From Escherichia coli (GTDB taxonomy: Bacteria; Pseudomonadota; Gammaproteobacteria; Enterobacterales; Enterobacteriaceae), in the NCBI RefSeq assembly GCF_013315695.1, contig NZ_CP054353.1: 64,000 nucleotides of DNA. One strand, written 5' to 3'. Made by a program: the position numbers. Every line of letters begins with the position of its first letter. Position 1 is the first letter of the stretch. Positions 1 through 676 of this stretch are shown here, in pieces.

Positions 1-676
1 TATGAGCCTGCTGTCACCCTTTGACGTGGTGATATGGATGACGGATGGCTGGCCGCTGTATGAATCCCGCCTGAAGGGAAAGCTGCACGTAATCAGCAAG
101 CGATATACGCAGCGAATTGAGCGGCATAACCTGAATCTGAGGCAGCACCTGGCACGGCTGGGACGGAAGTCGCTGTCGTTCTCAAAATCGGTGGAGCTGC
201 ATGACAAAGTCATCGGGCATTATCTGAACATAAAACACTATCAATAAGTTGGAGTCATTACCGGTGTCCCGTAACGGAAAGAGTAACATTGGGTGCAATC
301 AATACGTTATCACCGATCGTTACCGTGTAGTCGTCTACAATGGTTAAATTGAAATTTGCATAAAAATTGCGGCCTATATGGATGTTGGAACCGTAAGAGA
401 AATAGACGGGTGGTTCTACCCAGGCGTTTTCCCCTACCGTGGCAAACATTTCTTTAATCAGGCTTTCTCTTTTTTCAACTTCTGATGGATGCGAGTGATT
501 AAACTCATACATTAACGTTTTCCCACGAAGTCTTTTTTCCGGTAAGCCTTCGCACATATCGGTAAATAGCTTGCCTGCTTTTATTCTTTCGGTCATTGGC
601 ATGTTCATTGCGATCATTCCGTCCTGATATGTTGGTCGGATAAGGCGCTCGCGCCGCATCCGACATTGATTGCTTA

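What the first reader, a model, noticed from the sequence alone, without database searches (positions are those of the whole stretch)
1..608. IS1 truncates lacA while leaving lacZ and lacY intact
The right end of an IS1 copy (ending at 262) abuts lacA codon ~115, so the ORF reads ...NVTLSVTGH followed by one IS1-derived codon and a stop. The acetyltransferase lacks roughly its C-terminal 88 residues. The other IS1 junction and any target duplication lie outside the window.
Basis: seen in the sequence. Interest (0 to 1): 0.5.

Follow-up and report, generated by a model that had tools for sequence, protein, structure and literature searches.

The report
IS1-bounded 39-kb deletion ending in lacA
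A copy of the mobile element IS1 marks where an E. coli clone lost about 39 kb of chromosome, from the second half of lacA outward, while keeping the lactose genes lacI, lacZ and lacY; this is an ordinary, well-understood kind of event.

Summary
The right end of an IS1 copy ends at window 262 and abuts lacA (minus strand) one base after codon 115. The reading frame runs ...SVTGH-Arg-stop, so 88 of 203 residues are missing. LacY, LacZ and LacI are full length.

The window is identical to E. coli MSB1_4I (NZ_LR898874.1) and nearly identical to AF3 (NZ_OZ547117.1). In both complete genomes the IS1 is a whole 768-bp element. Its left end lies 172 bp downstream of ykgG, not next to the rest of lacA. 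The two flanks share no 9-bp target duplication.

The closest relative, MS 21-1, has 99.97-100% identical flanks and an intact lacA. It carries 38,808 bp between the two breakpoints: lacA 3' part, cynRTSX, codBA, prpRBCDE, yahG-O, pdeL, betABIT and a ykgH remnant. The tested 24.8 kb of that interior does not turn up elsewhere in AF3 or MSB1_4I.

So this is an IS1-bounded deletion, not a simple insertion and not an assembly chimera. The cause was most likely intramolecular IS1 transposition (adjacent deletion). Recombination between two IS1 copies cannot be excluded.

The same truncated product occurs on eight further public contigs. The mechanism is textbook and the interest is low.

The parts
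1..262 (+). Right-hand 262 bp of a 768-bp IS1 (IS1A-like). It holds the 3' part of insB and the right inverted repeat at 240-262. The first 506 bp lie before the window start.
   Evidence: The right repeat matches exactly. The stretch is identical to the end of the complete IS1 at 47210-47977. The transposase C-terminus matches NF033558. The full element is seen in L001 and L002 at 11495-12262.
263..263 (.). Right deletion breakpoint: the first retained chromosomal base, which is lacA nucleotide 346. It corresponds to L005 position 1198 in strain MS 21-1.
258..608 (-). Truncated lacA' reading frame: codons 1-115 of lacA (608-264), a hybrid Arg codon (263-261) and a TAA stop from the IS1 repeat (260-258). 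RefSeq annotates it as a pseudogene in AF3 and MSB1_4I.
674..1927 (-). lacY, intact (417 aa).
   Evidence: NF007077 at 662 bits against a cutoff of 429.
1979..5053 (-). lacZ, intact (1024 aa).
   Evidence: NF007074 at 1978 bits against a cutoff of 1221.
5054..5175 (-). lac control region: CAP site, -35 TTTACA, -10 TATGTT and operator O1 AATTGTGAGCGGATAACAATT.
   Evidence: Read directly. The K-12 comparison is from memory.
5176..6258 (-). lacI, intact (360 aa from the GTG start at 6258).
   Evidence: NF007075 at 617 bits against a cutoff of 340; annotated in AF3 and MSB1_4I.
47210..47977 (+). Second IS1 copy in the window, a simple insertion in araJ with a perfect 9-bp target duplication CCCAGCACC (47201-47209 and 47978-47986). 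It serves as an internal control for what a simple IS1 insertion looks like in this strain.
   Evidence: araJ is intact in the relative MS 21-1.

Best explanation
The window opens inside a complete 768-bp IS1. That IS1 is the scar of a deletion of about 39 kb.

Shown:
- In the source genome (MSB1_4I) and in a second isolate (AF3), the IS1 left end abuts a point 172 bp downstream of ykgG.
- The IS1 right end abuts lacA nucleotide 346.
- The two flanks carry different 9-mers, so there is no target duplication.
- The closest relative, MS 21-1, has 38,808 bp between these two points.
- The tested 24.8 kb of that stretch is absent from both deletion genomes.

Inferred mechanism, about 0.6 of the probability: an IS1 of the variant that has multiplied in this clone first inserted at one of the two end points. 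It then made an intramolecular (abortive or replicative) transposition attack on the other point. This removed everything in between and kept a single IS1 without flanking repeats.

Consequences, inferred from the sequence:
- lacA is a pseudogene that encodes only the first 115 of 203 residues, so galactoside acetyltransferase activity is expected to be lost.
- lacI, the promoter and operator, lacZ and lacY are untouched, so the strain should still ferment lactose inducibly.
- The clone has lost the cyn, cod, prp, bet, pdeL and most yah genes.
- lac transcripts now run into IS1 in antisense.
For: Junction anatomy.

Source genome: the window is identical to MSB1_4I over 12,700 nt and has 2 mismatches to AF3.

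Context: the gene order fdeC...ykgEFG-IS1-lacA'-lacYZI-mhp is the same in both complete genomes.

Flanks: the left flank is CCATTCCTG and the right flank is GGTGTCCCG, so there is no target duplication. The araJ IS1 in the same window has a perfect 9-bp duplication.

Reference states: MS 21-1 has 38,808 bp between the breakpoints and its flanks are 99.97% and 100% identical. CFSAN061771 has 35,768 bp there.

Loss, not relocation: for the tested 24.8 kb of the interior, no near-identical full-length copy is listed for AF3 or MSB1_4I. The next best full-length matches after MS 21-1 are other strains at 97.9-98.4%.

Uniqueness: both junctions occur in only 2 of 5,426 complete genomes, and no genome holds either junction as a simple insertion.

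IS1 variant: the junction IS1 in AF3 is identical to the araJ copy. It differs at 2-3 bases from the two IS1 copies that MS 21-1 holds inside the interval.

IS1 activity in the lineage: there are at least 40 IS1-matching places in AF3 and MSB1_4I against 19 in MS 21-1. MS 21-1 also has an IS1 without a target duplication at pdeL|fdrA, where yahB-yahE are missing.

Precedents: large IS1-mediated deletions are documented in PMC10569738 and PMC4173774.
Against: The window itself does not contain the left junction. The deletion is inferred from genomes identical or nearly identical to the window.

The final structure cannot separate transposase-made adjacent deletion from homologous recombination between two directly oriented IS1 copies. 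Both leave one IS1 with unrelated flanks.

No intermediate (a simple insertion at either end point) was found.

Absence of the interior from AF3 and MSB1_4I is read from their not appearing among the top-ranked hits, not from a direct scan of those genomes. The other 14 kb of the interior was not searched.

No phenotype or transcript data are available.
Confidence: 0.9

Rival explanations
1. Same deletion, different route. Two IS1 copies inserted independently in the same orientation, one 172 bp downstream of ykgG and one at lacA nucleotide 346. RecA-dependent recombination between them then excised the 39 kb and left one hybrid IS1.
For: The end product is exactly what is seen: one IS1 whose left flank and right flank are unrelated. 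The clone is rich in IS1, with at least 40 matching places. Other strains have independent IS1 insertions in the same orientation in lacA and just downstream of ykgG. An IS1-by-IS1 deletion of the lac-mhp region is described in Shigella sonnei (PMC12778403).
Against: This route needs three events (two insertions and one recombination) against two for adjacent deletion. None of 5,426 complete genomes, including the close relative MS 21-1, has an IS1 at either exact site as a simple insertion.
Confidence: 0.3
2. Stepwise erosion from a resident IS1. The IS1 that MS 21-1 carries between pdeL and fdrA has the same orientation and already lacks a target duplication. It could have made two further adjacent deletions, one from each end, out to ykgG and to lacA.
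For: That IS1 exists in the closest relative, in the same orientation as the junction IS1, and is itself associated with the loss of yahB-yahE. The route needs only two events.
Against: The junction IS1 differs from that resident copy at 2 positions (MSB1_4I) or 3 positions (AF3). In AF3 it is identical to the variant found in araJ. Gene conversion would have to be added to explain this.
Confidence: 0.1
3. Simple IS1 insertion into lacA, with the rest of lacA and cynX following on the other side of the element.
For: Simple insertions of this kind exist in other strains. LR-71-1 has an IS1B 5 bp away with target duplication CCCGTAACG, and A134_1EC and CUWW10 have IS1 in lacA. The window itself cannot exclude this reading.
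Against: The genome identical to the window (MSB1_4I) and AF3 both show ykgG, not lacA 3', to the left of the IS1, and no target duplication. The tested 24.8 kb of the interior does not appear among their matches.
Confidence: 0.02
4. Assembly artefact: the ykgG-IS1-lacA' join is a false join through a multi-copy repeat.
For: IS1 is present in 40 or more places in these genomes. A metagenome contig (L013) does show a false join of lacA'-IS1 to argO through the repeat.
Against: Two independent complete assemblies (UK blood isolate, Australian rectal swab) give the same join. The flanks keep the normal chromosomal order and orientation. The tested 24.8 kb of the interior is missing from both genomes rather than placed elsewhere. 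A draft genome and several metagenome contigs also end lacA' in IS1 at the same base.
Confidence: 0.02

Closest known systems
IS1-mediated adjacent deletion. The classical IS1 deletion formation in the gal region (Reif and Saedler 1975) is cited from memory. The 'abortive transposition model' is as cited in PMC10569738.
   Same: One IS1 is retained exactly at the deletion junction. The deletion starts at the terminal base of the inverted repeat. No target duplication flanks the element. Tens of kilobases are removed. The host is an IS1-rich E. coli.
   Different: Nothing in kind. Only the location (ykgG-ykgH spacer to lacA nucleotide 346) and the gene content are specific to this clone. The route (transposition or recombination) is not proven here.
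IS1-flanked deletion of the lac-mhp region in ONPG-negative Shigella sonnei (PMC12778403)
   Same: Same chromosomal neighbourhood and same element. An IS1-linked loss of metabolic genes in a human-associated lineage.
   Different: In S. sonnei about 10 kb is lost, including lacI, lacZ and lacY, by recombination between two pre-existing IS1 copies, and the phenotype is Lac/ONPG-negative. Here lacIZY are spared, the loss runs the other way (lacA to ykgH) and it is four times larger.
Simple IS1 insertions in lacA of other E. coli (LR-71-1, A134_1EC, CUWW10)
   Same: Same element, same orientation and same gene. The LR-71-1 insertion is only 5 bp away.
   Different: Those strains keep both halves of lacA and an intact cynX. 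In LR-71-1, the one whose junction I read, the insertion also has a 9-bp target duplication. They are insertions, not deletions.
Tn951 and plasmid-borne lac operons without lacA (Tn951 from memory, not tested)
   Same: These are lacI-lacZ-lacY units that function without a complete lacA. IS1 next to a truncated lacA is also seen on several E. coli plasmids (H19-H25).
   Different: Those are mobile or plasmid copies. This one is the chromosomal lac operon in its normal place.

Membership tests
IS1 family insertion sequence | Terminal inverted repeats of about 23 bp (left GGTGATGCTGCCAACTTACTGAT, right GGTAATGACTCCAACTTATTGAT) | tested here: met
   The right repeat is exact at window 240-262. 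The left repeat is exact at L001 and L002 position 11495. The repeat sequences used as queries are from memory and were confirmed by the complete copy at 47210-47977.
IS1 family insertion sequence | Length of 768 bp with insA and insB' joined by a -1 frameshift at an A-run | tested here: met
   L001 11495-12262 is 768 bp. It contains TTAAAAAACTC, and RefSeq annotates an 'IS1A family transposase, programmed frameshift'. Only the last 262 bp lie in the window. The partial InsB scores 63.6 bits, below the cutoff of 100, because it is cut by the window edge.
IS1 family insertion sequence | A 9-bp (sometimes 8-bp) target duplication on simple insertion | tested here: not met
   The flanks are CCATTCCTG and GGTGTCCCG. 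This is expected for a deletion junction and does not argue against the element being IS1. The araJ copy in the same window has the 9-bp duplication.
IS-mediated adjacent deletion | Contiguous DNA that a close relative has between the two flanks is absent, and the IS sits exactly at the join | tested here: met
   38,808 bp are missing relative to MS 21-1, whose flanks are 99.97-100% identical. 35,768 bp are missing relative to CFSAN061771.
IS-mediated adjacent deletion | The missing DNA is not relocated elsewhere in the genome | tested here: met
   A search with 24.8 kb of the interior does not list AF3 or MSB1_4I among the near-identical full-length hits. This is indirect: it is read from the ranking, not from a scan of those two genomes, and it covers only part of the interior.
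IS-mediated adjacent deletion | Made by transposase action rather than by recombination between two IS copies | not testable with these tools
   Both routes give the same final sequence. No intermediate was found in 5,426 complete genomes.
Galactoside O-acetyltransferase LacA (NF007076) | Full-length hexapeptide-repeat acetyltransferase of about 203 aa scoring above the curated cutoff | tested here: not met
   The score is 250 bits against a cutoff of 347. Only profile positions 4-115 of 203 are covered, and only residues 1-115 of PDB 1KQA. It is a lacA remnant, not a functional member.
Lactose operon lacIZY | Full-length LacI, LacZ and LacY above curated cutoffs, with the operator and promoter present | tested here: met

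The most novel reading that the evidence does not exclude
The deletion may be one visible step of an IS1 burst that is driving reductive evolution in a rare human-associated E. coli lineage. The copy count is at least 40 against 19 in the nearest relative. New hits in araJ and argO are shared by the two deletion genomes, and araJ is shown intact in MS 21-1. The loss of the bet, prp, cod and cyn genes, with a boundary that just spares lacY, could be selected rather than neutral. Alternatively, lacA nucleotide 346 could be an exact IS1 hot spot hit more than once. That is hinted at by metagenome contigs with the same junction on lacY sequences that differ by 0.6-1%.
Probability: 0.12. Interest if true: 0.3.

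Novelty: already known. Interest (0 to 1): 0.1.

Why it matters
It matters little beyond strain description.

It explains why RefSeq lists lacA as a pseudogene in this clone. It shows that the clone has lost about 31 annotated genes, covering cyanate, cytosine, propionate, choline-to-betaine and c-di-GMP (pdeL) functions.

It gives testable phenotype predictions: Lac-positive, no transacetylase activity, 5-fluorocytosine resistant, no growth on propionate, and no osmoprotection by choline.

It also provides a unique junction sequence that can serve as a marker for the clone in genomes and metagenomes.

There is a practical lesson as well. A repeat-collapsed metagenome contig joined this junction to the wrong locus (argO).

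Tried and rejected
1. Intermediates. I looked for a simple IS1 insertion at either exact end point in 5,426 complete E. coli genomes. None was found; only AF3 and MSB1_4I hold the junctions.

2. IS1 base differences. I tried to use them to choose between routes. The junction copy matches the expanded variant, which argues weakly against the resident pdeL|fdrA copy as the source. AF3 and MSB1_4I differ from each other at one base, so this is not decisive.

3. Exact-protein look-up of the 116-aa product. It gave eight more contigs, but all end in IS1 or pass through it, so they do not show the left side.
   - Contig L013 passes through the IS1 into argO. I showed this to be a repeat-mediated false join, because the argO::IS1 junction exists at a distant locus in AF3 and MSB1_4I only.
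   - The differing lacY and lacA' alleles on some metagenome contigs alternate between allele types in L013. I treat these differences, most clearly in L013, as probable strain-mixture consensus and not as proof of independent events.

4. Lineage. I could not name the sequence type or phylogroup. A paper search for MSB1_4I returned only one unrelated paper, and a search for MS 21-1 with 'phylogroup' found none.

5. Promoter and terminator scans of the junction gave nothing above chance. The one exception is a terminator-like hairpin at the left breakpoint.

6. My remembered K-12 lac promoter string did not match at 3 or fewer mismatches. Reading the region shows that this is due to natural polymorphisms and that the functional elements are present.

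7. I ran no further search on predicted intermediate junctions. The chance of a hit was small and the result would not change the verdict.

Full report
**What is in the window**

Window 1-262 is the right-hand end of an IS1.
- The 23-bp right inverted repeat matches exactly at 240-262, with none expected by chance.
- The stretch is identical to the last 262 bp of a complete IS1 elsewhere in the window.
- Window 2-247 encodes the C-terminus of the IS1 transposase.

From 263 onward the minus strand is lacA.
- The start codon is at 608-606, and codons 1-115 run down to 264.
- One more lacA base (263) joins two IS1 bases to give CGG (Arg), followed by TAA inside the IS1 repeat.
- The 116-aa product covers residues 1-115 of the 203-aa galactoside acetyltransferase (PDB 1KQA; NF007076 positions 4-115, 250 bits against a cutoff of 347).

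The rest of the lac operon is intact. LacY (417 aa), LacZ (1024 aa) and LacI (360 aa) all score above the curated NCBIfam cutoffs. The -35 and -10 hexamers and operator O1 are present.

**Where the window comes from, and the other IS1 junction**

Only 2 of 5,426 complete E. coli genomes contain the IS1-lacA' junction as one uninterrupted match. They are NZ_LR898874.1 (MSB1_4I, rectal swab, Australia) and NZ_OZ547117.1 (AF3, blood culture, UK). MSB1_4I is identical to the window over the 12,700 nt compared, and AF3 differs at two bases.

In both genomes:
- the IS1 is a complete 768-bp element with an annotated frameshifted transposase;
- the gene order is fdeC ... rclRABC, ykgE, ykgF, ykgG, IS1, lacA', lacY, lacZ, lacI, mhpR;
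- the IS1 left end lies 172 bp after the ykgG stop codon.

The 9 bp to the left of the IS1 (CCATTCCTG) and to its right (GGTGTCCCG) are unrelated. By contrast, the second IS1 in the window, in araJ at 47210-47977, is flanked by a perfect 9-bp duplication CCCAGCACC. That is what a simple IS1 insertion looks like in this same strain.

**What was lost**

A third genome, MS 21-1 (NZ_CP146670.1, human colon, USA), is nearly identical to the window over 12 kb but has an intact lacA. Its sequence matches the left flank at 99.97% and the right flank at 100%. The two breakpoints map to L005 positions 40007 and 1198, so 38,808 bp are missing from the window's genome.

By the MS 21-1 annotation, the missing stretch holds:
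- the last 88 codons of lacA;
- cynX, cynS, cynT, cynR;
- codA, codB;
- prpE, prpD, prpC, prpB, prpR;
- yahO, yahN, yahM, yahL, yahK;
- a four-gene sugar ABC transporter cluster and an ASCH-domain gene;
- yahJ, yahI, yahG, fdrA;
- an IS1;
- pdeL;
- betT, betI, betB, betA;
- a second IS1 and a ykgH remnant.

That is about 31 annotated coding sequences besides the IS1 copies. Measured against a more distant strain with the standard arrangement (CFSAN061771), the gap is 35,768 bp.

A search with 24.8 kb of the interior returns MS 21-1 at 100%. The next best full-length matches are other strains at 97.9-98.4%, and AF3 and MSB1_4I are not among them. So this tested part of the DNA appears to be gone rather than moved. 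This reading is indirect because it rests on hit ranking, and the remaining 14 kb of the interior was not searched.

**Simple insertion and artefact are excluded**

The simple-insertion reading fails for three reasons: the left flank is ykgG, there is no target duplication, and the tested interior is absent.

A false join through the repeat is unlikely.
- Two independent complete assemblies agree.
- The flanks keep the normal chromosomal order.
- A draft genome (GCA_023858145.1) and several metagenome contigs end lacA' in IS1 at the same base.

The look-up did expose a real repeat artefact elsewhere. Metagenome contig L013 runs from lacA' through IS1 into argO. The argO::IS1 junction exists at a distant locus in AF3 and MSB1_4I and in no other complete genome. 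So that contig is a collapsed-repeat chimera from the same clone.

**How it most likely happened**

The structure is the classical product of IS1-associated deletion: one IS1 at the join, with the deletion starting at the terminal base of its repeat and no flanking duplication. Two routes give this product.
- Intramolecular (abortive or replicative) transposition from an IS1 already sitting at one end point. This is the model used for large IS1 deletions in clinical E. coli in PMC10569738.
- Homologous recombination between two directly oriented IS1 copies, as inferred for the lac-mhp deletion of Shigella sonnei in PMC12778403.

The final sequence cannot tell these apart.

Parsimony favours the first route. 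It needs an insertion plus a deletion, against two insertions plus a recombination. Neither MS 21-1 nor any other complete genome has an IS1 at either exact site. I put it at roughly 0.6, against 0.3 for recombination.

A third route starts from the IS1 that MS 21-1 carries between pdeL and fdrA. That copy has the same orientation, has no target duplication, and sits where yahB-yahE are missing. However, it differs from the junction IS1 at 2-3 bases, while the junction IS1 of AF3 is identical to the araJ copy. I give this route about 0.1.

**Context**

IS1 is active in this lineage.
- The araJ insertion is absent from MS 21-1.
- The argO insertion junction is found in no complete genome other than AF3 and MSB1_4I.

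Both end regions are recurrent IS1 targets in unrelated strains.
- LR-71-1 has a simple IS1B insertion 5 bp away in lacA, with target duplication CCCGTAACG.
- A134_1EC and CUWW10 have IS1 elsewhere in lacA.
- Other strains have IS1 at the lacA-cynX boundary.
- Forty-two genomes have an IS1 within a few hundred bp downstream of ykgG.

**Consequences (inferred)**
- The lacA remnant keeps the N-terminal domain and the first turns of the hexapeptide-repeat helix up to His115, but lacks the rest of the fold. Loss of activity is expected, and lacA is dispensable for growth on lactose.
- lacI, the control region, lacZ and lacY are intact, so inducible lactose use should persist.
- lac transcripts now enter IS1 in antisense. 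A terminator-like hairpin that belonged to ykgH lies on the same strand directly beyond the IS1 (a consensus match only).
- The clone should lack cyanase, cytosine deaminase, the methylcitrate pathway, the choline-to-betaine pathway and PdeL.

**Verdict**

The open question is answered in favour of an IS1-bounded deletion of about 39 kb. The phenomenon is textbook, and the pseudogene and the IS1 are already annotated in RefSeq. I found no paper on this particular deletion, but it is an ordinary strain-level event, so interest is low.

Noticed in passing
window 47210-47977 (flanks 47201-47209 and 47978-47986): A second, complete IS1 interrupts araJ as a simple insertion with the 9-bp target duplication CCCAGCACC. 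araJ is intact in the close relative MS 21-1, so this hit arose after the split from MS 21-1.
   Followed up: yes
whole genomes NZ_LR898874.1 and NZ_OZ547117.1 versus NZ_CP146670.1: There has been an IS1 copy-number burst. The new insertion junction at argO is found in no other complete genome, and the araJ insertion is absent from MS 21-1.
   Followed up: partly
window 60764-62209 (islet about 60500-62000): A 1.6-kb islet of 37% G+C sits between malZ and the next gene (an acpH-like gene). It holds one 481-aa ORF (WP_001571017.1, 'hypothetical protein') with no Pfam match above threshold.
   Followed up: partly
L006 5440-6320 (LR-71-1); L007, L008; hits H3-H26: lacA and the lacA-cynX boundary are hit repeatedly by IS1, in the same orientation, in unrelated E. 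coli chromosomes. IS1 next to a truncated lacA is also seen on plasmids. The LR-71-1 insertion is only 5 bp from the junction studied here.
   Followed up: partly
L005 29730-30497 (MS 21-1, between pdeL and fdrA): This IS1 has no target duplication (flanks TGCAGTAAATCC and GGCATGGCCGAT), and yahB-yahE are missing next to it. It marks an earlier IS1-linked deletion inside the interval that was later lost entirely in the window's clone.
   Followed up: partly
L013 1-1633 (ENA ERZ810782 NODE_972): This metagenome contig joins lacA'-IS1 to argO. It is a false join through the IS1 repeat, because the argO::IS1 junction lies about 2.3 Mb away in AF3.
   Followed up: yes
L010, L012, L016, L013 against window 263-3608: These metagenome contigs encode the identical 116-aa truncated LacA and end in IS1 at the same base, yet they differ from the window at 0.6-1% of positions in lacA', lacY and lacZ. 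In L013 the alleles alternate between types. Strain-mixture consensus is the likely cause; real recombination or an independent hit is not excluded.
   Followed up: partly
alignment A1 column 274 (IS1 position 262): The junction IS1 of MSB1_4I has T where the AF3 junction copy and the araJ copy have A. The two MS 21-1 copies also have T. This could be a point mutation, a gene conversion or a polishing error in a multi-copy repeat.
   Followed up: no
L001 11479-11494 (directly left of the IS1): The left breakpoint coincides with the end of a terminator-like hairpin, CAGGAATGGATTCCTG followed by a T-run, on the strand of ykgH and of the lac operon.
   Followed up: no
window 5054-5175: The lac control region differs from the K-12 sequence as I remember it at several bases (for example TGTGAGTCAGCTCACTCA in the CAP site and AGGATACAGCT at the ribosome-binding site). 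The -35 and -10 hexamers and O1 are unchanged.
   Followed up: no
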